A stretch of 64,000 nt of DNA from Haliotis rufescens (lineage: Eukaryota), in the NCBI RefSeq assembly GCF_023055435.1, contig NW_025963846.1, positions 17,422,001 to 17,486,000 on the forward strand, written 5' to 3'. The notes below the pieces were generated by a model. That model was given only the letters and a program-made list of their open reading frames with translations, was not told where the DNA came from and made no database searches. Of this stretch, positions 3,811 through 35,352 are shown piece by piece (position 1 is the first letter of the stretch; every line of letters starts with the position of its first letter). The translations under genes were made by a program, and so were the position numbers.

Positions 3811-3939
3811 ATCTGTACATGATGGGAAGACCGATGTGAAGCCAAGGAAATCTTCACTACAAGAATGAATGTTGACCTGGACATGTTTAGGGCCTAATGC
3901 CACTTATATTTTAGGGATCCTTACAGGCCATATTCAGAT

Positions 3940-4960: not shown

Positions 4961-4974
4961 ACAGCAACAAATGA

Positions 4975-10482: not shown

Positions 10483-11121
10483 GCACACCTTCCCCACCTT
10501 CCACACCTTCCACACCAACTCACACAGAAGGGCCACGAAGACCTCACCCTTTGCCTCGACCAACACTGGAAGCAAGAGATGGCGGAGACAAATATGAAAA
10601 TGTTGTTATTCGCGCCCCTTCAGTCAAGGGCCCCAAAAAGCCATTGCGGGCTGTTTCGGACTCCGGCCAGGCATATGAGAACCAAAAACCATCTGGTGTG
10701 TCCAAAACGACATCAGCGCCACTACCCTTGAAGCAGACTTCCCCAATGACCCTGAATAAACAGCCAAGATCACAGGCTCCGGTTGCACCCACAGCAGGAC
10801 CCAGCAGTTCTGGTAACACCACCCTACCAAGAGCAGGACATAGTACTATAATTGACACTGGCACTAAAATCGCAACTAAAAAAACATTTGCACCACCACC
10901 ACCTAAAAACCAAGTAAATGCTCACAAGGCAGGTGTCCTGAACTTTGGCCAAGTTGGTGGTCAGACACCAGTTCCGGTCACCTCAACCAAGAAGCCTGGT
11001 GAGGTTACAAATGGGCAGTCTGATATGTATGGTGAGGTTCTAAAGAATCCAACTACTGGTAAACTTGGGAGCTACCCGGATGTATCTCGCACGGGTCTGG
11101 AACAAGGAAAGAAGAAGAGAG
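10483..11121 (+). CDS. Exon A of an unrecognised tyrosine-motif/proline-rich signalling protein (5'-partial gene)
   Basis: tttatttag acceptor and G|gtaagc donor, 639 nt, phase 1-1, open frame: TPSPPSTPST..PHPLPRP..KYENVV..AYENQK..APPPPK..MYGEVL..SYPDV..GKKKR. Confidence 0.85.
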
Positions 11122-11355
11122 GTAAGCGGCTTCAGCCATCTTTGATTGTCTTGAGGAACAATGTAAGAAGACCAACACTGACGTGTGTTGTGTCTGTTGT
11201 ATCATGTGGAGAGGAGCAGGTAAAGTAGTGAGCCCATGTCAGATTCTCTTTAAGTTATACATTTTCATGGTCAATTAAACTGAAGATTTCAGATCCACTT
11301 ATACCAGGCATCTCCTTGTTGAAATTGTCTAATTGGCATGACGGGTTGAGAGAAT

Positions 11356-11506
11356 GAGTGAGGTTTCATGCTTCTTATAGCAATATTCCATTAATGTCAC
11401 GGCGGAGAACACCAGAAATGGGCTTCACACGTTTCACCAATGTTGGGAATCAAACCAAGGTTCGGCATGAGTTAATGCTTAAACTACTAGGTTACCCCAC
11501 CGGCCC
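11356..11506 (-). mobile_element. tRNA-derived SINE, family A
   Basis: Reverse-complement match to 6898-7060 (CACCAGAAATGGGCTTCACAC, GGGAATCAAACC). Confidence 0.8.
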
Positions 11507-12207
11507 TGATAGGGGTGAAGGCAGATTATTAAACCTTGTTTGTTGAAGCTGACATTTCATTGTGAATTTTCACAACTTGCACAGAAAGTATTTCAAAACT
11601 TTGTAACTGACACATACACAAGATATATCCAGTACACAATCATTGATTCTATTGTACACTTTTTATCAGAAATTCAAGCTTCTGAAAAACAATCTCCTTA
11701 TCCAATGTCTATCTACAATCCGGATCTCTTTGGAAACACAATCCAATATACATTCTTGAGTCATAACTCTTTAGTCACGCATAACCAAATCTGTTGTCTG
11801 TCTTCTAATCAGATATATTTGGCGACATGATAATCTAAATTCAATCTCTTTCTCTTTGACAGTGCAATAATCTTATTCAGTGTTCAGTGACACAATAGCC
11901 AAGTATGCAATGTCCATCTTTGATCCAAATCTCAAAAACAGTTGAATCCAAAGTCCGTCTTTGATCCAGAACTCTTTGGCGACATGATCCAGTGTACATC
12001 TTAGAGTCACATCTCTTTGGCAACAATGTTTTTTGTTGTTTTTTTCCAATTTTTGTGAATACTTACATAAAGTTTAACTTTGTAGCTGCATGGTTTAAAA
12101 TTATTCCTGTATGCTATGAAAAAAGACAGGTTGAATGATGACGTGTTCAGCATCAGTGTGTTAGTGATGGTCTGACGTGACTGTTGTCCTTGTCCTACTT
12201 TGAAGCA

Positions 12208-12483
12208 GGGGCACACGGGGCCAGACGCCCAAGGTGCAGCAGTTTTCTGTGCAGAGTTGTGTCCCTTGGGCACGCCAGAAACTTTATTGGTCCAATCTTG
12301 TTCGCCCCGAGGTTGTTTTAGGTTTATCAGCACTATAGCCATGCTCCTTTTGGGTTTCACCTTAGTGGTAAAAGTCTGAGACTTTTGCCTCACTTAGGGC
12401 TTTCCCCCAACATACACCTGACATGCCGTGATTTAACAGGAATAGTGTTCATATGGGTGTGAAACGTGTGAAAAACTCACTCA
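12208..12483 (+). mobile_element. SINE family C, diverged copy
   Basis: Collinear with 8965-9240 (GCAGAGTTGTGTCCCTTGGGCAC..GGGTTTCACC..GTGGTAAA..CTCACTCA). Confidence 0.75.
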
Positions 12484-14080
12484 ATGCTCCTATGAAGCCA
12501 GAACTGTAGTACTAGTGTATCCCGTGTGAAATTCGACTGGTATCCCAAGGGATCCTATATATGCGATAAGGGTGGGTAGTCCAAATCTCACTGGAATTAC
12601 TTCATCCCAATGGGATAAGGTATTTGCTAGGTGGGATCCCAGTGGGATATCAAACGAAGACGGATGTTAGACTGAGATAAGTGGATAAGGGATATCATTT
12701 GGTTGCCATGGAGATGTATAACCTGTTTGCATGAGAATGTTTATTACCACAAACCTGCCATGTACTTCCAGATACCCGATACCCGATACCCAATACCCGA
12801 TACCTGAAACCTAATACCCAATACCCAATTCTAACTTCATGTATCTATTATGATAAGAAAAAACTACAAGAAGTCAGATTAAACTTTTAAGCCAAGTAAC
12901 TTTATCAGTGAATATTTTGTAAGATGAACCTGATGAAAGGAAATTATGTCACATATCAAATTTATTTATTTTCAAATGATAATTTGGTTGTGCCAATGTT
13001 TCAATTATTGATGTATGAGTTTAATTATCATGATGATTATGATGCAAGTTCAGGTCCATGAGGGTGTATCCCAGTGTCCTGGTTTGCTTCTGTTGTCAAC
13101 TGCATGCTTTGAAATAATACAATATATATAGACAGTGCACATGCTTTTATCCAACCAGAATGTCAAGAATCACTCCTACACCGAAGTATAAACACCTGCT
13201 ACTACATGTATTTGTGGGACTTTGGTTGATATATTACGTATTTACTGACTTTTCTTTTATGTCAGCCTAATGAGCATTAATTTAATTAACTCAGCAAGTA
13301 CTCTTTGATTTAGCACCTGGTAAGGAAGGTCTATATTGTTTGGGGCATTCAACACCTCTCTTAACACCAAATTTTCCTTTCACATTTAGGAGATCTGATG
13401 ATGAAAATTGGGTCACTGTGACCTATCATCTTTCAATCAAGTCATACACTACAGTACAGTTGATGGCTGCACAGATGCATTGATAGATGTCTTGTACACT
13501 GTCTTGTGCTCAGATCATGGAATTATCCAACTTAAAACATTGGTATCAGTTGAGTCTTTATTTGGAAAATAGGTCACCACAACCTACTTTTTCTAATAAC
13601 ATGAACTACTTTCTCTGATCTGGGGTGTTTTGGTTGTATTTTTAGCCAATAAATTGGTGATTTTGAGTCAAGGTGAAAGTGAGAATATTGGACTTACGTT
13701 TGTTTTCATATTTTTCTAGTTGAATAACTTTTAATCTATGGATGATTTCATGTTTTCATGAAATTTGGCTGTTGGCTGATTTTGTCTTTAAATGATGGTT
13801 GGGAGTTTTCAATGTTGCATAGATATGTAATCTTGGCTAATGATTGTAGCAAGTCATGCCAACTGAACAACATTAGCCAATATTGTAGCTAAAATGGAAA
13901 GAATTATCATTAAACTTGTCACATGTTATCAGAAATGAGCGGGCCACTTGATAATGTCTTCATATCACGCCCGTTGTTCTATGATGTTTCCATATTTGTA
14001 AAAGTGGGTCAGTAAATGTTTCAAAACCGAAATTGATGTTTATTTGATAATAAACTCTATCCATTTTAGCAATAATAACA

Positions 14081-14418
14081 GTAACTCTATTTTTCAGGGC
14101 ATTATCATTTGCAGAAGCCCTTGGTCTTTTCAACTGCCCTCCTTCACCGGGCAGTTAATGGAAGACCTCAGGGCTTCTGCAAATGATAATGCCCTGAAAA
14201 ATAGCGTTACCCATATAACAACCAGGGTGATAAATACTAAACGTAGATATGATTCTAGAGGTGTTTTACACATACATACGTGGATACATCAAAGGAAACA
14301 TTATTTTTAGGGCATTATCGTTTGCAGAAGCCTGGGGTCTGCCATTAACTTCCTGACGAACAACAGGAGTTGAAAAGACCAAGGACTTCTGCAAATGATA
14401 ATGCCCTGAAAAATAATG
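14081..14418. repeat. Pair of about 125-bp palindromes in inverted orientation (MITE/foldback-like)
   Basis: TATTTTTCAGGGCATTATCATTTGCAGAAGCC...GGCTTCTGCAAATGATAATGCCCTGAAAAATA at 14081-14209 and again at 14297-14418. Confidence 0.88.
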
Positions 14419-14838
14419 CTAGGATTATTATAGGTAAAATGAATAGAATTTGAAGCTTATCCCAAAATGAACAAAACAACAAACAACAGCAAAAGTTCAG
14501 TGGCTGTATCAAAAACCTCAAAATGGAGGTCATTGATTTACAAATAGCAACGTCATAGAACATAACATAGGATGATGTCACAAACAAGAAATATCACTCC
14601 AATGACATCACATAACACTAGAATAGATTTCAGCCCCTTGTTAGGGAAATGGGGTCTGCTATCACAGTGGCCCCCCAGATTTCTGATAACATCCAGGCAT
14701 GTTTTTGATAATTCAGTCCATTTTAGATAAAAATGCAGTTAGTATCTGTCTTAATGTATGCATATATAGTACTTCTTTGACATGTACATGCACTTTGAAG
14801 CAAACTGTACATAATCACGTACATACACATTTAAATCT

Positions 14839-15066
14839 GTGAAGATCCGGGTCAGCAACCAAGCAGAAAAAGGTGGCTAACAGGATTGGGTGGTCAGACT
14901 CGCTGACTTGGTTGATGCATGTCATCGTATCCCAAATGCCTAGATCGATGCTCATGGTGTCAATCACTGGATTGTCTGGTCAAGACTTGATTATTTGCAG
15001 TCCGCTGTCATGTAGCTGGAATACTGCTGAGTGCGGCGTTAACAAACAAACAAACAAACAAACAAA
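14839..15066 (+). mobile_element. SINE-like family B
   Basis: GTGAAGATCCGGG..GGTGGTCAGACTCGCTGACTTGG..(AAAC)n tail. Confidence 0.85.
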
Positions 15067-15730
15067 GAATCCAATGTTTAATCTGGTCAGTGATAAGTAA
15101 GGGATATCTCCGTCATCACAAGTTGTATGTAAAGAGGGGAGTGTTAGATGTTCTAGGTGTTTTCAGGAGATACTAGCAAGTGTGATATCTGTGTAGAGTA
15201 TGTCAATGACTTTGATTCAGTCATTTCCCAGTATGCATGCATGCAATCCCACCCCCATGTTGTGCTTGTGAGACGAGGTTGTGCATGACCCGCCCCGTGT
15301 TATGACCAGGGAGGACCTGCTTGATGCATGTTATAAATCCTGTATATGTCCCACGTTTGGCTTTTGTCACTTGAAAAATATGTAACAAATATCAGATATT
15401 ATATCTAAAATAACAAATTTTAATAATAATTTAAATTCTTTATTACAAGCTTTCCTTTTTCATTGTTCTTACAAATACTTAATCAATGATAAATTATGTG
15501 ACTGTTGCACTTGTATGATCGTCCGCTTTGTACAGTGATATCTATTTCAAGTAATGAGAACATGTGATCTCAGCATCAGTAAGTAAGGGAGGCTGTCATT
15601 CACAATAAGAGAGTTCCTCATGTCATAACATCTACACGTCATACTTGGGCGCTGAAGGCTTATAAAATTGTGCTGTCTACCCCGCGTGCCTCCCTTTGCA
15701 CAAGCGTTTAAATAATTAGTTTCCCACAAG

Positions 15731-15847
15731 GAGGCGCTGTGAAGAAAGCGATGCATAAAGCTGAACCCGTCCAGAATTATGAAAACTTTCCCGTGCCAGG
15801 AAGCCACAAGGATGCATACGAGAACTTTCCCCCGTTAATTACGCAAG
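15731..15847 (+). CDS. Exon B of plus-strand signalling protein
   Basis: tttcccacaag acceptor, G|gtaaag donor, 117 nt, phase 1-1: GGAVKKAMHKAEPVQNYENFPVPGSHKDAYENFPPLITQ; absent from the ORF track. Confidence 0.8.
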
Positions 15848-16110
15848 GTAAAGTCTGCTGCATAACGATGCTGCTGTTTTAACTTTTGCATGTTGGTTTG
15901 GATGAATTTAGATATATTTTCATACTTCGGTTGGTGCTTGTTGTAACTATTGAATACTTCAACTTAAAAACATATTTGAATGAATTACAAATGATGGCAT
16001 GCATTGTTCTGAGAAGGTATGAACTTTGGACATGTATTATTGTATTGTAGATATTTCTTTCAAGATGGACCATACATTATCCATCTCCGTCAACATTGGT
16101 GCCCTTTTCA

Positions 16111-19025
16111 TGGGGTGGGGATGGAGCAGGTGGGGTGGGGATGAAGCAGATGGGGTGGGGATGGAGCAGGTGGGGTGGGGATGAAGCAGATGGGCTGGGG
16201 ATGGAGGAGGTGGGGTGGGGATGAAGCAGGTGGGGTGGGGATGAAGCAGATGGGGTGGGGATGAAGCAGATGGAGTGGGGATGAAGCAGATGGGCTGGGG
16301 ATGGAGGAGGTGGGGTGGGGATGAAGCAGGAGGGGTGGGGATGAAGCAGATGGGGTGGGGATGAAGCAGATGGAGTGGGGATGAAGCAGATGGGCTGGGG
16401 ATGGAGGAGGTGGGGTGGGGATGAAGCAGGAGGGGTGGGGATGAAGCAGGAGGGGTGGGGATGAAGCAGGTGGAGTGGGGATGAAGCAGGAGGGGTGGGG
16501 ATGGAGGAGGTGGGGTGGGGATGAAGCAGATGGGGTGGGGATGAAGCAGATGGGCTGGGGATGGAGGAGGTGGGGTGGGGATGGAGGAGGTGGGGTGGGG
16601 ATGAAGCAGGAGGGGTGGGGATGAAGCAGGAGGGGTGGGGATGAAGCAGGAGGGGTGGGGATGAAGCAGGTGGGGTGGGGATGAAGCAGGAGGGGTGGGG
16701 ATGAAGCAGGTGGGGTGGGGATGGAGCAGGTGGCGTGGGGATGGAGCAGGTAGGGTGGGGATGGAGCAGGTAGGGTGGGGATGGAGCAGGTGGGGTGGGG
16801 ATGAAGCAGGTGGGGTGGGGATGAAGCAGGAGGGGTGGGGATGAAGCAGGTGGGGTGGGGATGGAGCAGGTGGGGTGGGGATGGAGCAGGTAGGGTGGGG
16901 ATGAAGCAGGTGGGGTGGGGATGGAGCAGGTGGGGTGGGGATGAAGCAGGAGGGGTGGGGATGAAGCAGGAAGGGTGGGGATGGAGCAGGTGGGGTGGGG
17001 ATGAAGCAGGAAGGGTGGGGATGAAGCAGGTGGGGTGGGGATGAAGCAGGAGGGGTGGGGATAGAGGAGGTGGGGTGGGGATGAAGCAGATGGGGTGGGG
17101 ATGAAGCAGATGGGCTGGGGATGGAGGAGGTGGGATGGGGATGGAGGAGGTGGGGTGGGGATGAAGCAGGAGGGATGGGGATGAAGCAGGTGGGGTGGGG
17201 ATGAAGCAGGAGGGGTGGGGATGAAGGAGGTGGGGTGGGATGAAGCAGATGGGCTGGGGATGAAGCAGGAGGGGTGGGGATGGAGGAGGTGGGGTGGGGA
17301 TGAAGCAGATGGGGAAGGGATGAAGCAGATGGGCTGGGGATGGAGGAGGTGGGGTGGGGATGGAGCAGGTGGGCTGGGGATGAAGCAGATGGGCTGGGGA
17401 TGGAGGAGATGGGATGGGGATGGCGCAGATGGGGTGGGGATGAAGCAGGTGGGGTGGGGATGGAGCAGATGGGGTGGGGATGGAGCAGGTGGGGTGGGGA
17501 TGGAGCAGATGGGGTGGGGATGGAGCAGGTGGGGTGGGGATCGAGCAGGTTTGGGTGGAAATGAAGCAGGTAGGGTGGGGATGGAGGAGGTGGGGTGGGA
17601 TGAAGCAGGTGGGGTGGGGATGGAGCAGGAGGGGTGGAGATGAAGCAGGTTGGGTGGAGATGGAGGAGGTGGGGTGGGGATGAAGCAGATGGGATGTGGA
17701 TGAAGCAGGTGGGGTGGGGATGGAGGAGGTGGGGTGGGATGAAGCAGGTGGGGTGGGGATGAAGCAGGTGGGGTGGGGATGAAGCAGTTGTGCTTGGGAT
17801 GGAGAAGGTAGGGTGGGGATGGAGCAGGTGGGATGGGGATGAAGCAGGTGGGGTGGGGATGAAGCAGGTGGGGTGGGGATGGAGGAGGTAGGGTGGGGAT
17901 GGAGCAGGTTGGGTGGGGATGGAGCAGATGGGCTGGGGATGGAGCAGATGGGGTGGGGATGGAACAGTTGGGGTGGGGATGGAGCAGGTGGGGTGGGGAT
18001 GAAGCAGGTGGGGTGGGGATGGAGGAGGTGGGGTGGGGATGAAGCAGGTGGGGTGGGGATGAAGCAGGAGGGATGGGGATGGAGGAGGTAGGGTGGGTAT
18101 GGAGCAGGTGGGGTGAGGATGATGCAGGTGGGGTGGAGATGGAGGAGGTGGGGTGGGGATGAAGCAGGTGGGGTGGGGATGGAGGAGGTAGGGTGGGGAT
18201 GGAGCAGGTTGGGTGGGGATGGAGCAGATGGGCTGGGGATGGAGCAGATGGGGTGGGGATGGAACAGTTGGGGTGGGGATGGAGCAGGTGGGGTGGGGAT
18301 GAAGCAGGTGGGGTGGGGATGGAGGAGGTGGGGTGGGGATGAAGCAGGTGGGGTGGGGATGAAGCAGGAGGGGTGGGGATGGAGGAGGTAGGGTGGGTAT
18401 GGAGCAGGTGGGGTGAGGATGATGCAGGTGGGGTGGAGATGGAGGAGGTGGGGTGGGAATGAAGCAGGTGGGGTTGGGATGAAGCAGGTCGGTTGGGGAT
18501 GGAGCAGGTCGGTTGGGGATGGAGGAGGTGGGGTGGGGATGAAGCAGGTGGGGTGGGGATGGAGCAGGTCGGTTGGGGATGGAGCAGGTGGGGTGGGGAT
18601 GAAGCAGGTTGGGATGAAGCAGGTGGGGTGGGGATGAAGTAGGTGGGGTGGGGATGGAGCAGGTGGGGTGGGGATGGAGCAGGTGGGGTGGGGATGGAGC
18701 AGGTCGGTTGGGGATGGAGCAGGTGGGGTGGGGATGAAGCAGGTTGGGATGAAGCAGGTGGGGTGGGGATGAAGTAGGTGGGGTGGGGATGGAGCAGGTG
18801 GGGTGGGGATGGAGCAGGTAGGGTGGGGATGAAGCAGGTTGGGATGAAGCAGGTGGGGTGGGGATGGAGCAGGTGGGGTGGGGATGGAGCAGGAGGGGTG
18901 GGGATGAAGCAGGTGGGGTGGGGATGGAGCAGGTGGGGTGGGGATGAAGCAGGTGGGGTGGGGATGGAGCAGGTGGGGTGGGGATGAAGCAGGTCGGGTG
19001 GGGATGGAGCAGGTGGGGTGGGGAC
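16111..19025. repeat. 20-bp G-rich minisatellite, about 145 copies
   Basis: GGGGTGGGGATG(A/G)AGCAGGT tandem array. Confidence 0.97.
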
Positions 19026-19319
19026 AGAGCGGGTTAGGTTTGATGTTGTATTTAAAGAGTCTTTTTATTTGTATTTCTTTTTACTCTTGGTAAGAACATT
19101 AACCTCAAATCAACCCTTGCAACAGTTTGTTTTTCTGGTGCTTGTTCCTGTCAGTTAATTATTTTTGTTGGAACTGAAACCTGGAAGTGTTTGAGTTCAC
19201 ATATGCCAAAGCAAGGGTGACGGTTGAGGTAGTTGATGGGAACAATTGAGGCTCAACTCGAAGCCAAGTTTCAGCAGCAATTTAGCAATTGAGTAGCCAG
19301 AGCATTATGGTACATGTAA

Positions 19320-20035
19320 TTCATGACTGGGCCATCCTTGCTATGGCAATCCATGACTTGCTCATCGTTGCTATGGTAATTCATGACTTGGTCATCGTTG
19401 CTATGGCAATCCGTGACTTGGTCATCCTTGCTATGGCAATCCATGACTTGGTAATCGTTGCTATGGTAATTCTTGACTGGGTCATTGTTGCTATGGCAAT
19501 CCATGACTTGGTCATTGTTGCTATGGTTATTCTTGACTGGGTCATCGTTGCTATGGCAATCCATGACTTGGTCATTGTTGCTATGGTTTTTCTTGACTGG
19601 GTCATCGTTGCTATGGCAATCCATGACTTGGTCATCGTTGCCATGGTAATTCTTGACTGGGTCATCGTTGCTATGATAAGTAATTACTATTATCGTTGCT
19701 TTGGTAATTCGTGACTGTATCATCCTTGCTATGGCAATCCATAACTTGGTCATCGTTGCTATGGTAATTCTAGACTGGGTCATCGTTGCTATGATAAGTA
19801 ATTACTATTATTGTTGCTTTTGTAATTCGTGACTGGGTCATCGTTGCTATGGTAATTCATGACTGGATCATTGTTGCTATGGTAATTCATGACTGGGTCA
19901 TCGTTGTTATGGTAGTTCATGACTGGGCTATCATTGTTAAGGTAATTCACAACCAGACCATTGTTGCTATGGTAAAATTCGAGACTGGGCAATCGTTGCT
20001 GTAGTAATTCACAACTAGTACATATGTTGCTATGG
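19320..20035. repeat. 30-bp tandem minisatellite carrying X-box-like motifs
   Basis: CATGACTTGGTCATCGTTGCTATGG(C/T)AAT(C/T), about 22 copies. Confidence 0.93.
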
Positions 20036-20819
20036 TTATAGCACGCTATAACCAAGTTAACACTGTATTGAAGTGTGCAATAGAGAGGGAACACTGTACC
20101 AGTCTTGCAGTTTGGTTGTACTGTCACTTGTATTTTAGTTATAGGTTTACAGATTTCTCTAAAGTGATTTAATTTGAGAAGGTTAAAATATATATACGGA
20201 GATAAACTGAAACTGAAATTTCTTGTGGCATAACATTGAACTGATTGGTCAGTCTGGCAGGACTCAGAATACTGATGTAAAAGATTCTTCACTTAATCTG
20301 CACTGTGCCTTAAATTTGAATTTATTTTTATTTTTTGTGACACATTGTTCGTCAATCCATGAACCTATTGTTTTCCTTGAAATCTTGGAATACATTCTAA
20401 ATTTATGATGACTACCTGTTGCAAATGATAATGAACCAGCAAGAGGGTTTGTTCAGTGACCACATAGTGGACGAGTCCAAATTTACGACCTGGCTACTCG
20501 ACTCCCTATTACCAAACTCTACCGGGTACCCACTGTAGATGTAGACACATGTATACCACAGACTGAAGTTGATTGAAGCTTTATCTTAACTCAAAGATAT
20601 GAAATGTGCGCACAGTCAGAAAGAAATGCAAACATGAATGATGTTTATTGTTTTTGTAATTAAACAATATTTCATGTGACCAACCACGGGTCCGGGTGGT
20701 CCTGTGGGTACCCGGGTCGTACTCAGGACCCACTTGACCCAAGTACCCGAGATAACCGTCCCATCCCAACAATAGAGACTGTTATAAGAATGTTCTGGCC
20801 ACTATGTTATAGCCCAGGA

Positions 20820-21570: not shown

Positions 21571-21605
21571 AGCATGCAACAACAGGCCCAGAGAGCCCCA
21601 CTTAT
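21571..21605 (+). CDS. Exon C of plus-strand signalling protein
   Basis: cttcttctgttcaacag acceptor, gtaagt donor, 35 nt, phase 1-0: EHATTGPESPTY. Confidence 0.75.
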
Positions 21606-24995: not shown

Positions 24996-25038
24996 GACTT
25001 TGCCCCAGAGTTGCCATCTCGAGGGTACGAGAAGGAGG
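24996..25038 (+). CDS. Exon D of plus-strand signalling protein
   Basis: cttgtgctgcttcag acceptor, G|gtgagt donor, 43 nt, phase 0-1: DFAPELPSRGYEKE; exactly bridges the phases of exons C and E. Confidence 0.78.
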
Positions 25039-25569
25039 GTGAGTTACGTCACGTATTGCACATTTGCACATATCACAGTTTATGCACTAACGTTTGGTTC
25101 ACTTGGATGAAGTTAATAATAAATGTGCTGGGTGACCTTCATCACTGATACTTTGTATGGCGTGTGTTGTACGACATCAATCAATCAAAGGAGATCAAGG
25201 CATGATGTTGATGAATTGTGCATCGATCATATTGCATGACATATATCAACTAATCTTCACAGCAGTTGAATTTGTATGGCTTTTTATTAAATTTATACCA
25301 TTTTGTATGAAACACATTTTTAATACTCTCTGTATTGATCGCATTGCATGGCACAATCAAAGCATGTGTTACTATGTTTACTATAGATCTTTTCTATAAT
25401 GGAGATTCGGATGTCGAAGAGGGGTTTTGTGCCAAAATGAGGATTGGGTGTTCAAAATGCAGAGGTTTATCTAGACCTGCTTAGAGGCTGATATTTGGTC
25501 TCAAATCTGAAGCAAATGTCTCATTGTTTTCTTATCATCAATATGACATCCAATAATATGTGTCTTCAT

Positions 25570-26095
25570 TGCATGTGTAATACAGAAGTGTTAGCGTTCC
25601 ATGCATGTGTAATACAGAAATATTAGCATCCATGCATGTGTAATACGGAAATATAAGCGTCCATGCATGTGTAATACAGAAATATTAGCCTTCCATGCAC
25701 GTGTAATACAGAAATATTAGCGTCCATGCATGTGTAATACGGAAATATAAGCCTTCCATGCATGTGTAATACAGAAATATTAGCGTCCATGCATGTGTAA
25801 TACGGAAATATAAGCCTTCCATGCATGTGTAATACAGAAATATTAGCGTTCATGCATGTGTAATACGGAAATATTAGCCTTCCATGCACGTGTAATACAG
25901 AAATATTACTATCCATGCATGTGTAATACAGAAATATTAGCCTTCCATGTATGTGTAATACAGAAATATTACTGTCCATGCATGTGAAATATATAGAAAT
26001 ATTAGCCTTCCATGCATGTGTAATACAGAAATATTAGCGTCCATGCATGTGTAATACAGAAATATTAGCGTCCATGCATGTGTAATACAGAAATT
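25570..26095. repeat. About 31/32-bp tandem minisatellite, with a degenerate continuation at 26500-26830
   Basis: CCATGCATGTGTAATACAGAAATATTAGC(G/CT)T. Confidence 0.93.
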
Positions 26096-27194
26096 TATTA
26101 TATACTTCAGTGTGAAAGAAGTTGAGACAAGTGATATTTTCATTGCAGTGAGCATAACACTTTGTTATAAGCTGTCAATTTCTCATTTAACTTGTTAATC
26201 GAGACTGTTCATTTCGCAAAGTGCCATTTTGGTTACTTGACCAGCGTGTTTTCTTTTGCTTCCAACAGCGGCCTTGTAGGTTTCAAGAATATTTTCAAGT
26301 TGATTTTGTATATAAGCATATCCAAATGCATGATAAAGAATTTTATTGACCTCAAATATCTTTTGTTACTTTTTTTATAATTTTAAAGATTTTACAAATA
26401 CGGAATACTTGTTTCAGTCACATCTAGCCTGCTTGGTAGGGAGAATATACATTTCAAGGTTTTACATTTGTAATGAAATAATTTAATTTTCATGTAGACT
26501 TCAATGCATGTATATTACAGAAATATTAGGACTACCAAGCATGTGTAATACAGAAATAAAAGGCTTCAATGCTCAATGCTTGTGTAATACAGAAATAAAA
26601 TGCCTCAATGCTTGTGTAACATGGTGTAATATAGAAATATGAAACTTCTGTGCATTTGTAATACAGAAATACAAGGCTGGATTTAATATGGAAATACAAG
26701 GCTTCAATGCATGTTAAATATGGAGATATACAGTTTCCATCTGTTTGTAATACAGAAATATAGGACTACCAAGCATGTGTGATATAGAAATTTTTGATGC
26801 ATGTGTAATACAGAAATATAAGACTTCAGTGCGTATGAAGCTTCTTGTATGAGTAATATAAAAATATGCCCCAACCAACTCATTCTGATTTCATTCATCC
26901 TTGATGCCTGATTATGTATCATGTATTCCAATCTTGTATATCCTAACTTCAATTGGCCCAATTGCCTGTGGCCCTGCAATTTGCTGTTCAGAGTTCCATC
27001 CCTTTTCATGAAAGGATCTGATGATCATTAGTTGAAATCCAAGTTTTGTCCTGCTTATGATCCTTGGTTTGTTAGCACTGTACCTGTGCTTGAAGGTTAC
27101 ACCACAGTGGCAAATATCTACAACCTGTGTCACTTTGTGCACTTTATAAACTATAGGCTGACCTGCAGTGATGTAACTAAGACATAGCACCTGC

Positions 27195-27240
27195 ACTCAC
27201 TCACTCACTCACTCACTCACTCACTCACTCACTCACTCAT
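27195..27240. repeat. (CACT)n microsatellite
   Basis: About 11 CACT units; same motif as the SINE A/C tails. Confidence 0.9.
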
Positions 27241-27670
27241 GATTTCACCGAATTCCAATCCATTTTAATCCTTTTAGTCCCAATTCAAATGTTAAATGTC
27301 TTATTCCAATCTTATGTTCATTATGTCATCATTTGTTCCAGTTATTTTTTACAGATCTTGCTGCAATAGATATTTTGGACTATTATTACTATAGCTATTC
27401 ACCCTTTTCATTGGAGCAGATTGTACTTATTATTCAATAATTCAAGTTATAGAGGTGTCTAACAAACTCATATTAATAAACTAATCAGACTTTTGTGTAT
27501 CTTCCGTTATATTTTGTATTTTCATTTTATAAGTAAGAAGATTTTAATTTCATAAGTCAACTCTTTCACATGCCTCAAAATAGTTACCCACATGCATAAT
27601 TAGAGTAAAAACTATAAATATACAAGTGAAACATCATCACATTATAAGTATTGTCCTACACATCTTCCAG

Positions 27671-28032
27671 AGGCAATTACAACACTATCTCCACCACCAG
27701 CCTCTGGATTCGGGACAGTCAGTGCATTAGGTGGGGCTGTCCCCTCTGCACGATCAAGACTTGACAGTTCTGGAGCAGCAGCAGCAGCATCAGCATCATC
27801 AAGGACTATCGAAACAACATCTTCCAGCAGTCCTATGACCCGAAGTGTGGCCAGCAGCATGGACAGCGTCTACTCGGAGATCTCAAACGTACAGGAGTCA
27901 CCAAGAAGGACAGAAGGTCCTTCAGTTAGTCGAGCACCCCCTGGGAATCACCAGCAACTCCAATTTCAAAATCACAATTCAGCTGGTACCAATTCTCGGA
28001 ATCCGTTTGGGGTAATGAAGGATATATTTCAT
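27671..28032 (+). CDS. Exon E of plus-strand signalling protein
   Basis: catcttccag acceptor, phase 1: EAITTLSPPPASG..AAAAASASS..MDSVYSEISNV..NSRNPFGVMKDIFH, donor gtgagt (phase 0); alternative in-frame donors at 27925 and 28012 are possible. Confidence 0.78.
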
Positions 28033-28214
28033 GTGAGTGGAACAAGCAGAAGATGCTTGATAAGGAACCCAATGGTCTTTGTTACCGTGAATATATTTGT
28101 GTGTCCCTGTCACAGGGTCTTTTTGTACAATTTATTCCAATAGTCAATACAAATGTTCAGAGACATGTCTTGACGTAAAAATAATTTATGATAAAACCTC
28201 ATTGGTAGTTTTTA

Positions 28215-29832
28215 GTCTAGGTAAGTCTGAGACAGTTGTCTGGTGTCTAGAACATTCAGAGACAATAGTATGGTGCCTATGTCATTCTGGGACAATGTTC
28301 TGGTGCCTGGTACAAATTGTACGGTGCCTGTGTCATTCTGGGACGATGGTCAGGTGCTTTAGTCATTCTGAGAAGTTTCTGGTGCCTAGGTACATTCTTG
28401 GACAATGGTATGGTACCTATGCCATTCTGAGACAATGATCTGGTGCCTAGGTCAGTCTGGGACAATGGCCTGATGCCTTGATCCAGTGTAGAACATTGGT
28501 CTGTTGTCTTGGTCACTTTGGAACAATGTTCTCATGCTTGGCTCAATCTTGGCAATGGTCTGATGCCTGGATCCAGTGCAGGGCAATTGTCTGGTACCTT
28601 GGTCAGTCTTGGACAATGACTTTGTCATATGTCTTTCTGAGAAAATTCTGTTGTTTCTAGGTCAATCTCAGACAATGGTCCGGTGTCTATGTCATCCTTG
28701 GACAGTGGTCTGGTGCCTAGGATATTTTTGGGCAATTGTCTGCTGCCTATGCCATTCTGGGACAATGTTCTGGTTCCTAGGATGAATGCCTGGTTGTTAT
28801 GTCATTCTGGGATGACGATCTGGTTCCGACGGTCAGTCTGGGATAATGGTCTGGTCCCCAGGTCAGTCTGGGACAATGGTCTGATGCCCAGGTCAGTCTG
28901 AGACAATGGTCTGGTGCCTATGACAGTCAAGGACAATGGTCTGATGCCCACGTCAGTCGTGGACAATGGTCTGGTGCCCAGATCAGTCTGGGACAATGGT
29001 CTAGCGCCTGGGTCAGCATGGGACAATGTTCTTATGCCTATGACAGTCTGGAACAATGGTCTGATTCCTGGATCCAGTGTAGGACAATGGTCTGGTGCCT
29101 GGGTCAGTCTCGGACAATGGTCTGTGCCTGGGTCTATCAGGGACAATGGTCTGCTGCCTTGGTTAGTCTGGGACAATGGTCTGGTGCCTGGGTCTATCGG
29201 GGACAATGGTCTGCTGCCTTGGTCAGTTTGGGACAATGGTCTGCTGCCTTGGTCAGTTTGGGACAATGGTCTGGTGCCTGGTTCTATCGTGGATAATAGT
29301 CTGGTGCCTGGGTTAGTCTGAGACAATGTTCTGGTGCCTAGGTCAGTCTGGGACAATTGTCTGGTGCCTTGGTCCGGTCTGGTGTCGGTTTGCTGGGATA
29401 ATGGTCTTGTGCTCAGGTCAGTCTGGAACAATGGTCTGGTGCCTGGGTCTATCAGGGACAATGGTCTGCTGCCTTGGTTAGTCTGGGACAATGGTCTGGT
29501 GCCTGGGTCTATCGGGGACAATGGTCTGCTGCCTTGGTCAGTTTGGGACAGTTGTCTGGTGCCTGGGTCAGCCTCGGACAATGGTCTGTGCCTTGGTCTA
29601 TCAGGGACAATGGTCTGCTGCCTTGGTCAGTCAGGGACAATGATCTGTGCCTGGGTCTATTGTGGAAAATGGTCTGCTGCCTTGGTCAGTCTGGGACAAT
29701 GGTCTGCTGCCTTGGTCAGTTTGGGACAATGGTCTGGTGCCTGGTTCTATCGGGGATAATAGTCTGGTGCCTTGGTTAGTCTGAGACAATGTTCTGGTGC
29801 CTAGGTCAGTCTGGGACAATGGTCTGGTGTCT
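28215..29832. repeat. About 30-bp tandem minisatellite
   Basis: GGGACAATGGTCTGGTGCCT(A/G/T)GGTCAGTCT, more diverged at the left end. Confidence 0.93.
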
Positions 29833-30176
29833 GCTGTAGACATGTGACCCATTTTCATGCACGAAAAGTAAAAATGACGAAGTTGGATTTTTTGTTATAT
29901 TCATAAAAAGACAAAAGGATGTCTTGAAATGACATTATGAAACTAGATAACCTGTATTCCCTGGGAAGGAACAACATGTCAGTTAAGTCCCGACCCAACT
30001 TGTTAGCTTTGAAATAAAAGAAAGTGTGTCATACAATGTCGTCGTCCAAACGATGTCTGTTAAGGAAAATACATTCTGTGAAAATCTTACAAAACTTAAA
30101 GAAAACACAATCTGTTTGGGTAATGTTATTTTGGCACACTGATTATGGGTTCTGGAAAATACAACCAGAGGCTATC

Positions 30177-30540
30177 TACCGATATATGGTCTCTGGTTGG
30201 ACCAATACCGATATATGGTCTCTGGTTGGACCAATACCGATATATGGTCTCTGGTTGAACCAATACCGATATATTGTATCTGGTTGAACCAATACCGATA
30301 TATGGTCACTGGTTGGACCAATACCGATATATTGTATCTGGTTGGACCAATACCGATATATGGTCTCTGGTTGGACCAATACCGGTATATGGTCTCTGGT
30401 TGGACCAATATCAATATATGGTCTCTGGCTTGACCAATACCGATATATGGTCTCTGGTTGGACCAATACCGATATATGGTCTCTGGTTGGACCAATACCG
30501 ATATATGGTCTCTGGTTGGACCAATACCGATCTATGGTCT
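30177..30540. repeat. 29-bp tandem minisatellite, about 12 copies
   Basis: ACCAATACCGATATATGGTCTCTGGTTGG. Confidence 0.95.
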
Positions 30541-30596
30541 CGATATGTGGTTTCTGATCCAACAGATTCATCTGTGAAAATATTAATCATACCTGA

Positions 30597-30883
30597 GCCC
30601 TGTTCCACAAAGCGAGGGGTGGTCGGGTAGCCTAGTGGTTAAAGCGTTAGCTTGTCATGCCGAAGACCCGGGTTCGATTCCCGACATGGGTACAATGTGT
30701 GAAGCCCATTTCTGGTGTTCCCCGCTGTGATATTGCTGGAATATTGCTAAAAGCGGCGTAAAACCATACTCATTCACTCACTCACTCCACAAAGCCATCT
30801 TAGCACTAAGATGATAGTAACTCCCATACTTTAACATAGACTTACGACACTTGTGGCGCTAAGATCGCTTTGTGGAACAGGGC
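30597..30883. mobile_element. Short MITE interrupted by a SINE
   Basis: TIR GCCCTGTTCCACAAAGCGATCTTAGC / GCTAAGATCGCTTTGTGGAACAGGGC once the SINE is removed. Confidence 0.75.
30616..30785 (+). mobile_element. tRNA-derived SINE, family A, intact copy with TSD
   Basis: A-box TAGCCTAGTGG, B-box GGTTCGATTCCC, (CACT)n tail; TSD TCCACAAAGC(G/C)A at 30604-30615 and 30786-30797. Confidence 0.92.
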
Positions 30884-31509
30884 ACTGGTTTGAAAACTAA
30901 AACCTCTGCTAAGACACGAACACAAAAGTTAAAAATCTGTTATTTCCCTGTAGTTTGAATATAATTTCCTCAGCACATTTATAAGCAAATTGCATTTATG
31001 GATCTCACAATGGCCAATTGTTCTGATTTCAATTTAGATTTTTTTTCATGTATTTAGCACAGGTTCTTTGGTAACAACTTTTTTTCACTTCACAAGAGGA
31101 TTTTGGTTCTATTCAGATATTTTGATGGAATGATATTTTCTTTATATATCATAATTTCTTCAGACTATTTAGCTTAACACAAACGATGAAAAACTGTCAT
31201 CACACATAACCGTTCCAGCATAGAGAACCGCCCACAAACTGATTACATCACGGTTTGTTGTGCACTTTTAATTTCCTTTGCTTAACAGAAAATATGCATG
31301 CAATTGTTATGTGATTTTACTCAGAATGCTCAATGAGGTTATACTTCACACAATAAACAATGTATCGGTTGCCAAACCTGGGTTATTGAATGGCTGGAAG
31401 GACCGTGTGCTATTTATCACAACTCGCCCCTTTCCGAAAACTGAATTCAGCTTGCCGTAATGACATGAGTTGTTACAAATGGGTCATGTGCATGTGGTAG
31501 TGCAGGGAT

Positions 31510-31670
31510 CAAACGCCGCACTCAGCAATATTACAGCTATAGGCGCCAGTCTGTAAATAATCGAGTCTGAGCCAGACAATCCAGTGATTGACATCATGAG
31601 CATCCAGCTATGCAATTGGGATACGATGACATGCATCAACAACGACACCGAGCCTGACCACCTAATACCG
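31510..31670 (-). mobile_element. SINE-like family B
   Basis: Reverse complement: CACTCAGCAATATTACAGCTAT..CCAGACAATCCAGTGATTGAC..GAGCCTGACCACC. Confidence 0.8.
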
Positions 31671-32013
31671 TACACAACTGAGCAACCTGAAATTGTTCAA
31701 ACAAACTCAATGCACACTTCTGAGAATTAAGCAACAGATGTAAGGAATAAAAAATCACTTTAATATATGACTGTAACATCACAAAATGTGTGCAGAATAT
31801 TTACGTTTCTATTTGAACTGCTGTGTACTGAGTGTATTTAACTTTCTCTTAAGTAAATTCTTTTTCAGATTAACCTGTTACAAAGTTTCTTTAGAATAGT
31901 TGTCTGTTTGATAGTATATCTGTAATATATCTGGGGGATTGAGCATTTTCCTTGTTTCAATACTCTATGCACCTGTATGTTGTAAGTCGTATCTGTTACG
32001 TGGATAATATAAG

Positions 32014-32140
32014 TTGTAGCAGGATCACTCGGGGTACATGCGTCCTACGTTAGGTTTTATACCACGAGCCTCCAGCTCATGGTATAAGACCTAATGAGGG
32101 ATGCATAAAACCCCATGTACCCTGAGTGACCCTGCTACAA
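32014..32140. repeat. Long imperfect palindrome
   Basis: TTGTAGCAGGATCACTCGGGGTACATG...CATGTACCCTGAGTGACCCTGCTACAA with a nested inner stem. Confidence 0.85.
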
Positions 32141-33029
32141 ATTAATCCTACCGACATGTTCAATGTGACATTGTAAAAGAATTAACACAAATTCAACATT
32201 GATAGAAAGCAGCACTTCGATTGAGCTTAGGTTAACTTGCATTTTGTCATGTGACTTAGACTGACTTGGAAAAGCATGTGACTTTTGATTTGAAACGGGG
32301 TTTGAGGGATTTAATTTTCTTCTCAGAAATCCACGTGCAGCTTGTGTTGCTCATGGCGGGGTACAAGAGATTTATTTCCTCGTTGAGTAATGTATTACCC
32401 TCCAAGCGGGTTACACAGTATTTTATCAAGATAACGTTTACCAATCAGGTCTCATCATTCTGACATGAAGGTATGATAAGGTATTTTAACATTAATTCAG
32501 AAAAGGGGATTAGGTGCCTGACTCTGAGGATGTGGGTTCAAATCTGAGCTGTTACGTTTCACGTTTGCAATTCATCAATTTGGCTTCAATATTGGAGACA
32601 GAATTACTGGAACCTGCTTGTGTTTGGATCGCCTTGTATTTGTGACTGTTAACATAACTGTTCACTACCAGTGTTGGATCTGATATTTGCTTATTTAGAA
32701 ACAATTAAACTTGTCATAGAAAGTACTAACGTTTTCTAGGCAACATAGTAAAGATTGTGCAATTCTTTGTCAAGCTATGCAGCATTCATGTGCTTACAAT
32801 TTAAATATTCCTAGTTACTCCCCTGTTTTGTATAATATAGCCAATTGTTTCACCCTTTTGAAATATTGTTATCACAGGATATTAAATTGTTTGCTTTATT
32901 TCTGTAAGAATTGTAAAAAAATCATAAAAGACCCATTGGTCAGACCTTGGGGGGGGACACGGGTGGCCCAGTCATGGCCCATTGCGTCCCTTGACCATGC
33001 CAGAAACCGATGATTATTGGTTTGAATCC

Positions 33030-33146
33030 CAGTAATCCAACCAGTCTCAGTGTAATCCAACCAGTTTCAGTGTAATCCAACCAGTCTCAGTGTAATCCAA
33101 CCAGTTTCAGTGCAATTCAACCAGTTTCAGTGTAATCCAACCAGTT
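33030..33146. repeat. 20-bp tandem repeat, about 5.5 copies
   Basis: AGTGTAATCCAACCAGT(T/C)TC. Confidence 0.9.
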
Positions 33147-33280
33147 AAAGGAGTGATGATTGGGTCATTTTGGATCAGTCATTTTAATGGCTGGAGGTAT
33201 TGAGTTAATGAAGTGTCCACTGATGCAGGTTTAAGGTATTATGACATATTTGAAACACAAGGATCAAGATAAGGGCTCCC

Positions 33281-33500
33281 AGTGAAGATCTGGGTTAGAA
33301 TCGGTCTTCACCAAACCATGTTTGTCGTAACAGGTGACTAGCATGGACGGGTGGTCAGGTTCGCTGACTTGGTTGATGCATATCATATCGCAGTTTGGTA
33401 GATCGAAACCTGGATTTTCTGTCCCAGTGTCTGTTGTCAACAGACTGCTGTCATATCGCTTGAATACTGCTGCGAGCAGCTTTAAATAAGAACAAAACAT
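33281..33500 (+). mobile_element. SINE-like family B
   Basis: GTGAAGATCTGGGTTAGAATCGGTCTTCA..GGTGGTCAGGTTCGCTGACTTGGTTGATGC. Confidence 0.8.
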
Positions 33501-33663
33501 TTGAAGGGACATCCCTCCCTACCCATTGTTCATTAGTACATTTGGCACAGACAATTGTTAAACCAGACAATTTCATTGGGAACTATACCGTCTTGATTTT
33601 CCCTGGGTTTTACTGTTTTTTGATTTTGATGAAGTAATTAATGACTATTTGTCTCATTTACAG

Positions 33664-33685
33664 ATTCGAAATCAACGACCAGCAG
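33664..33685 (+). CDS. Exon F (22-nt microexon) of plus-strand signalling protein
   Basis: ttgtctcatttacag acceptor, CAG|gtaagc donor, phase 0-1: IRNQRPA. Confidence 0.7.
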
Positions 33686-33960
33686 GTAAGCTGTTCTTTG
33701 TAAAAATTCAGTACTGTATTTCATAATATATTTATCTACACATTTCAATTTTATTATTCTTAATATGTAACTGGTGAGCAACAGTCCCTCAGTTAAATGG
33801 CCTTTGTTTTATGTCATTACATCAAATAGCCTTACTGTTTGGACCCCAGAAGAAAACACTATTCTACTGTTGCAGTTTGACGTTGGTACTTGGAACCAGC
33901 TGTATTTTGTGTAGTATGGGTCTTGTTTTGTTTATGTGTTTGTGCTGTTTTCTGTTTCAG

Positions 33961-34014
33961 TGCAAGTGGTGCAAGGTATACCAGGCGTGTATAGATTCAG
34001 AGGCCAAGATGTAG
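33961..34014 (+). CDS. Exon G of plus-strand signalling protein
   Basis: ttttctgtttcag acceptor, G|gtaagg donor, 54 nt, phase 1-1: VQVVQGIPGVYRFRGQDV. Confidence 0.72.
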   Translation, partial: CKWCKVYQACIDSEAKM

Positions 34015-34540
34015 GTAAGGTTTCATTCAGGCAGTCAGGTAGCCGAGTGGTTAGAGCGTTCACTTGTCACACTGAAGGTCCGGGTTCGGTTCCCCACATG
34101 CTCATATTGCCTATATTTCCCTTGAACAATTTACCTCTATTACATCATGGGCATAAATTCCTGTTTGGGCTGTAATGACACTATAAATTCTTTAGATATT
34201 TCAACAGACGCCCTCTTCACTGCAAACATATCTAACAGTTTCTAGTGTACCCTGCCGTGATATTGTTGGAATATTGCTAAACACTGTATGAAACCAAATC
34301 ACTCACTCACACATTTACCTATTTATCAATGGCACAACAACCATGACCAGAAATGAATTTTTGTAAACAGTAAAATGAACATGCCCTTAACCTCTGTGAT
34401 AAGATTTACATCCATTTTTGCATACTGTAGGCTATCCTTGATACACTTCAAGCTCACATATAGTAGTGAGGTAAAATGGGATTGAACGTTGTGTCCAAGA
34501 TTATGGCACCTATGTGTCAGTGTGCTTGCATGTATGTGCG

Positions 34541-35020
34541 CAATCACATTAAAATCAGATCTTAGTTCTCGCTACAGCTAAACAAAGATCTGAGGACATC
34601 CCATTACGGGTCACGTCAGACCGACCTTGCGCGAACTTTGACCGGCCAATGGAATGACCAATCAGAAAGCAGCTTTCTTGTGCTTTACGGCACTAATTTC
34701 AAATTGGTGCCTACGCCTTGATATATATTTTGACAAATTCGCGATTACAAATTTGAAACCTGAACAAAAGAACATTCTGAAATGGCTAATAGATGGTCTA
34801 GATTGTATGGATTCAGTTGTTAAACCCGTAACTATCGTTCGAAGTTAAAGTTTTCGAGGTTGCATGATTAGAAATCCCATTCCGTCTGTCACTTTCATAA
34901 TCTGGTAAGCGATGCTCTGATTGGTCGGATGAAAGGTCGTCCTAATGTGACCCCTAATGGGATGTCCTCAGATCTTTGTTTAGCAGTACCGATAACTTAA
35001 GTCTGATTTTAATGAGATTG
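34541..35020. mobile_element. Non-autonomous DNA transposon with about 85-bp TIRs and 9-bp TSD (AcademH-like; MULE is the alternative)
   Basis: TIR CAATCACATTAAAATCAGA..AAACAAAGATCTGAGGACATCCCATTA; GTATGTGCG at 34532-34540 and 35021-35029; internal FAITNLKPEQKNILKWLIDGLDCM. Confidence 0.85.
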
Positions 35021-35281
35021 GTATGTGCGTGGCTGCTTGTACTAGACCTGGCTTCAGCCCTCTGAGTTGACAGTTTAACATGGATACCCCCATACAATAA
35101 ACTAACCCTGCGCCGACCAGTCTTTGTTCTAACGTCTTAATACTAGGTGACAATAAGTACCACGTTTTTACAATTTTGGGTATGTCATGGCAGCAGATGG
35201 ATATTTTTCATGTTTTAAACAGCAGTGAATACACTAACAAATCTTTAAATTACAAAAGAGTTTGATTTGGCCATTTTTCAG

Positions 35282-35352
35282 GTTTTGACCATCGTCCACA
35301 AAAACCGAAAGGCAAGAAGGAGGAACCCAGATACTGGAAGACCTACATGTAG
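35282..35352 (+). CDS. Terminal coding exon H of plus-strand signalling protein
   Basis: ccatttttcag acceptor, phase 1: GFDHRPQKPKGKKEEPRYWKTYM then TAG at 35350-35352; AATAAA candidates at about 36248, 36761 and 36968. Confidence 0.75.

What the first reader, a model, noticed from the sequence alone, without database searches (positions are those of the whole stretch)
10483..35352. Hidden eight-exon gene encoding a long disordered phosphotyrosine docking tail with Grb2-type, ITIM-like, SH3, EH and PDZ motifs
Seen: eight exons (639, 117, 35, 43, 362, 22, 54 and 71 nt) with canonical splice sites chain in phase (1-1-1-0-1-0-1-1-stop) into about 447 aa with no recognisable folded domain. The sequence contains YENV, YENQ, YENF twice, YGEV, YPDV, YDFA, SVYSEI, PHPLPRP, PELPSR, NPF and C-terminal KTYM*. 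Established: pYxN binds Grb2-family SH2 domains, S/I/V/LxYxxI/V/L is the ITIM consensus (SHP/SHIP phosphatases), PxLPxR is a class II SH3 ligand, NPF binds EH domains, and x-T-x-hydrophobic-COOH is a class I PDZ ligand. Inference: cytoplasmic tail of an uncharacterised receptor, or a Gab/LAT-like scaffold, combining activating and inhibitory motifs. Most exons are invisible in the ORF track.
Basis: partly seen in the sequence, partly recalled or inferred. Interest (0 to 1): 0.7.

Follow-up and report, generated by a model that had tools for sequence, protein, structure and literature searches.

The report
Abalone PEST tyrosine phosphatase tail
The eight exons are real, but they are the back half of an already annotated abalone tyrosine phosphatase gene (the PTPN12/18/22 family) whose enzyme part lies just upstream of the window, and whose floppy tail likely serves as a docking strip for partners such as the kinase Csk.

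Summary
The interpretation as a receptor tail or Gab/LAT-like scaffold fails. The peptide is the exact C-terminal part (aa 331-776) of RefSeq XP_048252888.1, a PTPN12-like phosphatase of Haliotis rufescens. Eleven more exons, 6-44 kb upstream of the window, encode an intact PTP domain, and an RNA-like contig joins the last two to the first exon. There is no transmembrane segment. The domain groups 100/100 with vertebrate PTPN12/18/22, and the last exon is a divergent CTH motif. NPF, YPDV and YDFA are not kept even within Haliotis, and the ITIM pattern is near chance level. SVYSEI better fits the Csk-SH2 site of PTPN18. Verdict: an annotated member of a known family. One modest lead remains: the ancestral tail may have carried both Csk handles that vertebrate paralogues later split.

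The parts
10483..11121 (+). Coding exon 12 of 19 (aa 330-542 of P0001): proline-rich disordered segment with PHPLPRP, YENV (Y367), YENQ (Y394), YGEV (Y512), YPDV (Y527)
   Evidence: covered end to end by single contigs in 3 of 4 runs, spliced to the upstream phosphatase exons in run X3
15731..15847 (+). Coding exon 13: cassette exon with the two YENF sites (Y559, Y572); skipped in RefSeq isoforms X3 and X5
   Evidence: joint 11121>15731 in 1 of 4 runs
21571..21605 (+). Coding exon 14 (35 nt), present in all five isoforms mapped
24996..25038 (+). Coding exon 15 (43 nt): PELPSRGY, the PxLPxR SH3-type motif conserved across molluscs; skipped together with exon 16 in RefSeq isoforms X4 and X5
27671..28032 (+). 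Coding exon 16 (362 nt): Ser-rich segment with SVYSEI (Y675, PTPN18-like YSxV/I site) and the non-conserved NPF
33664..33685 (+). Coding exon 17 (22 nt)
   Evidence: contig depth in its bin in 4 of 4 runs with empty flanking bins
33961..34014 (+). Coding exon 18 (54 nt)
   Evidence: joint to 35282 in 4 of 4 runs
35282..35352 (+). Last coding exon 19: divergent CTH (C-terminal homology) motif, then KTYM-stop

Best explanation
These exons encode the C-terminal 446 residues of an abalone PEST-family cytosolic tyrosine phosphatase, a predicted disordered tail that likely docks signalling partners and so would aim the upstream catalytic domain at its substrates. Shown: a 19-coding-exon gene with the PTP domain (aa 60-292; KNRY, WPD, HCSAGCGRTG and Q-loop motifs intact) on exons upstream of the window, grouped with vertebrate PTPN12, PTPN18 and PTPN22. 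Inferred by analogy with those proteins: (1) PELPSR binds an SH3 domain, most likely that of Csk, like the P1 motif of PTPN22; (2) tyrosine kinases phosphorylate the acidic YEN and YSEI sites, with pYSEI recruiting the Csk SH2 domain like PTPN18 pY389 and pYEN recruiting Grb2-type SH2 domains; (3) the CTH motif contacts an F-BAR protein, though it has lost two of four pocket prolines; (4) the likely net effect is to damp Src-family and adhesion signalling; (5) cassette exons would switch the YENF pair and the PELPSR+YSEI block on or off.
For: 100% identity over 212 aa to P0001. Exact spliced mapping of 5 of 5 RefSeq isoforms onto contig C68 with GT-AG introns. The 30-letter loose end of an X3 contig at 10483 equals the last 8 nt of coding exon 10 plus the 22-nt exon 11. 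Pfam PF00102 E 6.6e-80. Best single-domain PDB matches are PTPN12 (297 bits), PTPN22 (267) and PTPN18 (240), against 180 or less for SHP1/SHP2. A 21-row clade with 100/100 support in a 49-row tree. HCSAGCGRTG in 72 of 72 single-domain PEST-like rows, and twice among 186 other rows. The last exon's top PDB match is the PTPN22 CTH peptide, 9 of 20 identical and ungapped; R758 is the only tail column at least 90% conserved in 38 rows. Among 52 non-vertebrate-like relatives: PxLPxRxxY in 16 (0.1 expected), [LIV]YSx[VI] in 14 (1.3), Y[ED]N in 29 (4.6). Literature: LYSxV site of PTPN18 recruits Csk (bioRxiv 10.1101/125088); P1 motif of LYP binds Csk SH3 (PMC3554717); family architecture (PMC5424795).
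Against: No binding or phosphorylation was tested for the abalone protein. The CTH match is weak on its own (E 0.58). A profile of 8 vertebrate CTHs gives the tail only 3.1 bits (10 of 2,000 shuffles reach it), and one unrelated window segment had a higher domain score, 8.6 against 7.0. LYP contact residues P798, R799 and P801 are K, K and E here. None of the 3 FCH exon hits in the genome is PSTPIP-like (PACSIN, srGAP, FBP17/CIP4), though that search gives a lower bound. PELPSR lacks the TPESF extension that vertebrate PTPN12/22 rows carry. The tree's outgroups were receptor-type or other two-domain PTPs only. The census rows are related to each other and mostly unnamed.
Confidence: 0.95

Rival explanations
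1. Same gene, different partners: the tail works mainly as a Grb2/cytoskeletal-adaptor scaffold (YEN array, SH3 ligands, PDZ-type end), and neither Csk nor a PSTPIP-type F-BAR protein binds it.
For: YxN is the most frequent tyrosine class (6 of 15 tyrosines after the domain in isoform X1). The CTH is degenerate and no PSTPIP-like hit was found. C. elegans PTPN-22 binds the SH3 domain of the GEF DNBP-1 (PMC11373843). A T-Y-L end recurs in four caenogastropod-type proteins after a variable spacer.
Against: [LIV]YSx[VI] recurs in molluscs, amphioxus, a copepod and sturgeon PTPN18. Csk binding is described as common to all three vertebrate PEST phosphatases (PMC3554717).
Confidence: 0.3
2. SVYSEI is a true ITIM that recruits SHP/SHIP phosphatases.
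For: It fits the pattern and is kept in 4 of 4 Haliotis species; Mytilus has SVYSEV.
Against: The pattern appears in 31% of shuffled tails and in 34 of 52 relatives against 25.5 expected. Equivalent sites in other molluscs keep [LIV]YSx[VI], but most lack the ITIM residue at -2 (for example GIYSSV, NVYSKV, DVYSEV). The protein has no membrane anchor.
Confidence: 0.1
3. The eight exons form, or also form, a separate catalytic-less scaffold or receptor tail.
For: The exons alone have no folded domain, and a 14-16 kb intron separates them from the last upstream exon.
Against: The first exon begins in phase 1 at an acceptor. Contigs in 3 runs carry about 970-1,080 letters before it, and the one junction read is the phosphatase exon. 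The 10 members of the P0001 cluster are all named PTPN12/18-like. No transmembrane segment.
Confidence: 0.02

Closest known systems
RefSeq XP_048252888.1 / XP_048252887.1, tyrosine-protein phosphatase non-receptor type 12-like, Haliotis rufescens
   Same: Identical sequence; the eight exons are its last eight coding exons.
   Different: Nothing. It is a predicted annotation; a search for abalone + Haliotis + PTPN12 found 0 papers.
Vertebrate PTPN12 (PTP-PEST) and PTPN22 (LYP/PEP)
   Same: N-terminal PTP domain with HCSAGCGRTG, long Pro/Glu/Ser/Thr-rich tail (37% of tail residues), a PxLPxR motif, C-terminal CTH.
   Different: Their tails had no YxN in 7 of 7 rows and no [LIV]YSx[VI]; the abalone motif continues as RGY rather than RTPES; the abalone CTH has lost P798 and P801 equivalents and carries a KTYM end. 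The tree makes the abalone gene a co-orthologue of all three vertebrate genes, not of PTPN12 alone.
Vertebrate PTPN18 (PTP-HSCF/BDP1)
   Same: Tyrosine-rich tail with acidic Y[ED]N sites and an LYSxV site; in the human protein that site recruits Csk.
   Different: The one PTPN18 row examined (sturgeon) has a tail about half as long and no PxLPxR.
C. elegans PTPN-22
   Same: Invertebrate member of the same family, with proline-rich motifs binding an SH3 partner and roles in adhesion (PMC11373843).
   Different: 469 aa with an extra N-terminal proline-rich region; its sequence was not compared here.
Gab/LAT-type docking proteins and ITIM receptors
   Same: Disordered array of tyrosine and proline motifs (general knowledge, recalled).
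   Different: No PH domain, no transmembrane segment, and a catalytic domain is present.

Membership tests
PEST-family non-receptor PTPs (PTPN12/18/22) | Single N-terminal classical PTP domain with intact catalytic motifs | tested here: met
   PF00102 aa 60-292; KNRY 63, WPD 199, HCSAGCGRTG 232, QTPDQY 280; high-confidence model over about aa 11-300
PEST-family non-receptor PTPs (PTPN12/18/22) | Catalytic domain groups with PTPN12/18/22 | tested here: met
   100/100 clade (outgroups two-domain PTPs only); PDB ranking above SHP1/SHP2; C in the P-loop in 72 of 72 PEST-like rows
PEST-family non-receptor PTPs (PTPN12/18/22) | Cytosolic: no signal peptide or transmembrane segment | tested here: met
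   Highest 19-residue hydropathy 1.08, inside the PTP domain; charged N-terminus. No dedicated predictor was run.
PEST-family non-receptor PTPs (PTPN12/18/22) | Divergent, disordered Pro/Glu/Ser/Thr-rich central region with interaction motifs | tested here: met
   37% P/E/S/T; pLDDT under 50 over most of aa 324-746; PxLPxR present
PEST-family non-receptor PTPs (PTPN12/18/22) | C-terminal homology (CTH) sequence | tested here: met
   Ungapped 9 of 20 match to the PTPN22 CTH at the C-terminus, keeping R791, P795, P802 and W805 equivalents. Divergent: weak profile score, 10 of 2,000 shuffles. Clearer CTHs in 12 of 66 non-training relatives, all within 13 residues of the end
PEST-family non-receptor PTPs (PTPN12/18/22) | CTH binds a PSTPIP-type F-BAR protein | tested here: inconclusive
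   P798, R799, P801 equivalents changed; 0 of 3 FCH exon hits PSTPIP-like, a lower-bound search; binding itself not tested
PEST-family non-receptor PTPs (PTPN12/18/22) | Binds Csk (SH3 via PxLPxR or SH2 via pYSxV) | not testable with these tools
   Both motif types are present and enriched in relatives; no full-length abalone Csk sequence was in hand
PEST-family non-receptor PTPs (PTPN12/18/22) | Phosphotyrosine phosphatase activity | not testable with these tools
   Inferred from intact motifs only
ITIM-bearing or tyrosine-based receptors | Transmembrane segment and ectodomain upstream of the tail | tested here: not met
   Upstream exons encode a PTP domain; no hydrophobic segment
ITIM-bearing or tyrosine-based receptors | ITIM consensus conserved above chance | tested here: not met
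   31% of shuffles; 34 of 52 relatives against 25.5 expected
Gab/LAT-type scaffolds | PH domain or membrane anchor and no catalytic domain | tested here: not met
   Only phosphatase families matched in Pfam at E up to 0.1

The most novel reading that the evidence does not exclude
The abalone tail preserves the ancestral design of animal PEST phosphatases: one protein carrying both Csk handles (a PxLPxR SH3 ligand and a phospho-YSxV/I SH2 ligand), an acidic YEN array and the CTH. Vertebrate paralogues split these after duplication (PTPN12/22 kept the SH3 ligand, PTPN18 the tyrosine sites), whereas abalone toggles them by cassette exons, one removing the YENF pair and one removing both Csk handles together.
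Probability: 0.35. Interest if true: 0.35.

Novelty: already known. Interest (0 to 1): 0.1.

Why it matters
As a discovery it matters little: the gene is annotated in four abalone species and belongs to a well-studied family. Two small points have value. The database name 'PTPN12-like' understates that it is a co-orthologue of PTPN12, PTPN18 and PTPN22. Its tail also combines motif types that vertebrates appear to hold on separate paralogues, which, if confirmed, would show how the Csk-phosphatase brake on Src kinases was partitioned in vertebrates (the PTPN22 R620W autoimmunity site lies in the SH3 handle).

Tried and rejected
Receptor or scaffold reading: rejected once the upstream PTP exons were mapped. 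ITIM, NPF, YPDV and YDFA as functional motifs: rejected on chance level or lack of conservation. A word search with aa 735-776 found only 4 Haliotis proteins among 5 candidates, so it was too insensitive for the CTH question. A vertebrate-trained CTH profile did not reach 8 bits on P0001 itself. Search for a PSTPIP partner: 3 FCH hits from 8 candidates, none PSTPIP-like; this is no proof of absence. No run was on record as RNA among the holders listed, so the laid runs are treated as RNA-like only. Binomial p-values treat related proteins as independent and are not used. No complex prediction was sent, because no full-length abalone Csk or PSTPIP was in hand. Earlier scan notes near this place: none. 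Literature: abalone + Haliotis + PTPN12 gave 0 papers; none of the 8 papers listed for PTP-PEST/mollusc/hemocyte contained PTP-PEST; the 9 papers listed for the evolution query showed no title or abstract start on motif partitioning. Subscription journals were not searched and no supplements were read, so the novel case may be in print.
Full report
Observation. The eight exons are exactly as described. Each has an AG acceptor and, except the last, a GT donor; lengths are 639, 117, 35, 43, 362, 22, 54 and 71 nt; phases run 1-1-1-0-1-0-1-1-stop; the joined frame has 446 whole codons and one stop, while the other frames have 14 and 21 stops. Every motif named is present. Finding the 22-54 nt exons from raw sequence was a correct piece of gene reading.

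Identity. The first exon matched 3 of 3,853 candidate longer proteins, the best at 100% identity: P0001, XP_048252888.1, tyrosine-protein phosphatase non-receptor type 12-like isoform X2 of Haliotis rufescens. Orthologues are annotated in H. cracherodii, H. asinina and H. rubra. The exon occurs once in the genome. An exact spliced mapping of 5 of 5 isoforms onto the window plus 60 kb of upstream sequence succeeded with GT-AG introns throughout. It gives 19 coding exons, of which 11 lie 6-44 kb upstream of the window (G000:C68, from 17378274) and encode the catalytic domain.

Transcript evidence. Four runs guessed to be RNA (3 studies) were laid on two stretches. Single contigs cover 10483-11121 end to end in 3 of 4 runs and carry about 970-1,080 further letters upstream. 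The loose end listed for run X3 equals the last 8 nt of coding exon 10 plus the 22-nt exon 11, so the tail is spliced to the phosphatase exons. The joint 11121>15731 appears in 1 of 4 runs and 34014>35282 in 4 of 4.

Family. P0001 has Pfam PF00102 at aa 60-292 with intact KNRY, WPD, HCSAGCGRTG and Q-loop motifs. In the PDB the top seven rows are two-domain receptor PTPs with summed scores; the best single-domain matches are PTPN12, PTPN22 and PTPN18. In a 49-row tree the abalone domain sits with 11 other gastropod, 3 bivalve, amphioxus, copepod and 4 vertebrate rows in a 100/100 clade; the vertebrate PTPN12, 18 and 22 rows form their own group (95/97), so the abalone gene is a co-orthologue of all three (the 28 outgroup rows were domains of two-domain PTPs, with no SHP or PTP1B). 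The model is confident over the domain and under pLDDT 50 over most of aa 324-746. There is no transmembrane segment. This architecture, N-terminal PTP, divergent motif-bearing centre and C-terminal CTH, is the family definition (PMC5424795, passages).

The last exon is a divergent CTH. Its top PDB match is the PTPN22 CTH peptide of 7AAM, ungapped, 9 of 20 identical, E 0.58. By the structure paper (PMC8840930, passages and section 21), P795, P802 and W805 equivalents are kept, while P798, R799 and P801 are K, K and E. A profile from 8 vertebrate CTHs scores the tail at 3.1 bits (10 of 2,000 shuffles reach it); 12 of 66 other relatives score 8 bits or more, all near their C-terminus, and P0001 is not among them. 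The scallop orthologue has a similar KREEP variant. No PSTPIP-like exon was among 3 FCH hits. Homology is likely; binding is open.

The motifs, one by one. In 10,000 shuffles of the tail, four or more YxN sites occur in 0.06%, an ITIM pattern in 31%, NPF in 5.5%, PxLPxR in 4.7% and a class I PDZ end in 3.4%. Across four Haliotis species the YEN/YDN sites, YGEV, PELPSRGY, SVYSEI and KTYM are kept in 4 of 4; YPDV and NPF in 2 of 4; YDFA in 1 of 4. For a wider census I started from 95 single-domain relatives, dropped 23 further Haliotis rows, one Littorina isoform and 8 short tails, and left 3 unlabelled vertebrate-like rows out of both groups. Among the remaining 52 non-vertebrate-like rows, PxLPxRxxY occurs in 16 (0.1 expected from shuffles), [LIV]YSx[VI] in 14 (1.3) and Y[ED]N, beyond the first 30 tail residues, in 29 (4.6); ITIM in 34 (25.5) and NPF in 4 (3.3). 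A class I PDZ end occurs in 12 of 52 (no expectation computed); T-Y-L/M ends occur in Haliotis and four caenogastropod-type proteins but not in Patella, Gigantopelta or the three bivalves. Among 8 vertebrate rows, 7 have PxLPxR and lack both tyrosine motifs, and the one PTPN18 row shows the reverse. These rows are related and mostly unnamed, so the counts show recurrence, not independent events.

How it most likely works. Shown: a cytosolic phosphatase with a long motif-bearing tail. Inferred: the tail targets the enzyme. PELPSR matches the P1 motif of LYP, which binds Csk SH3 (PMC3554717, passages). SVYSEI matches the LYSxV site of PTPN18, whose phosphorylation by Fes recruits Csk (bioRxiv 10.1101/125088, passages); this fits better than an ITIM. 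pYxN as a Grb2 SH2 ligand is established knowledge, recalled here, and PTP-PEST and LYP are reported to associate with Grb2. Vertebrate PTPN12 regulates focal adhesions (PMC7959691, passages) and worm PTPN-22 acts in adhesion with an SH3-containing GEF (PMC11373843, passages), so damping of Src-family and adhesion signalling is the likely role. RefSeq isoforms skip exon 15731-15847 (both YENF) and/or exons 24996-25038 plus 27671-28032 (PELPSR and SVYSEI together), keeping the frame; whether these forms are regulated is untested. I put identity at about 0.97 and the Csk step at about 0.55.

Novelty and verdict. No paper on the abalone gene was found. The most novel reading left is that the invertebrate tail keeps an ancestral combination of Csk handles that vertebrate paralogues split; it rests on one PTPN18 row and untested binding. 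Interest 0.1.

Noticed in passing
window 53131-58698, minus strand: Exons of a cAMP-dependent protein kinase type II regulatory subunit gene, facing the phosphatase tail to tail; exon near 58414-58590 matches PKA RII-beta at E 2e-22. Not mapped in full.
   Followed up: partly
window 51536-51947, plus strand: Broken Tc1/mariner-type transposase fragment (PF01498, E 2e-06, below the curated cut-off).
   Followed up: partly
window 16111-19024: G-rich 20-nt tandem array of about 147 copies inside the intron after the YENF exon (GC skew about 0.85); it makes three ~1,000-codon open frames on the minus strand that are repeat artefacts.
   Followed up: no
window 172-5671, 19316-20011, 25570-26094, 28217-29829, 30177-30541, 35464-35691: Further minisatellite arrays (54-mer x67, 29-31-mers and others) in the introns; the last lies just after the stop codon.
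   Followed up: no
G000:C68, about 6.0 kb and 3.6 kb upstream of the window: Two alternative small exons (22 nt and 31 nt) used one or the other in RefSeq isoforms just after the PTP domain; the 31-nt one adds IYYN, a further YxN site. The 22-nt form is seen in run X3.
   Followed up: partly
P0024 (isoform X6): By eye this 527-aa isoform lacks exons 10483-11121 and 15731-15847, removing all four YEN sites of the finding; not mapped by script.
   Followed up: no
window 12240-12423, 14816-14999, 31441-31734, 33352-33498, 34234-34968: Interspersed repeats with very high summed contig depth in the RNA-like runs, likely abundant SINE-type elements.
   Followed up: no
window 11066, 11082, 35362: Single-letter differences in contigs: two in the first exon in run X9 and one in the 3' untranslated part in 3 of 4 runs; likely alleles.
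   Followed up: no
P0029, P0034 (Babylonia); P0025, P0030 (Patella): Babylonia has two paralogues of this phosphatase; limpet orthologues have a strongly degenerate CTH without the tryptophan.
   Followed up: no
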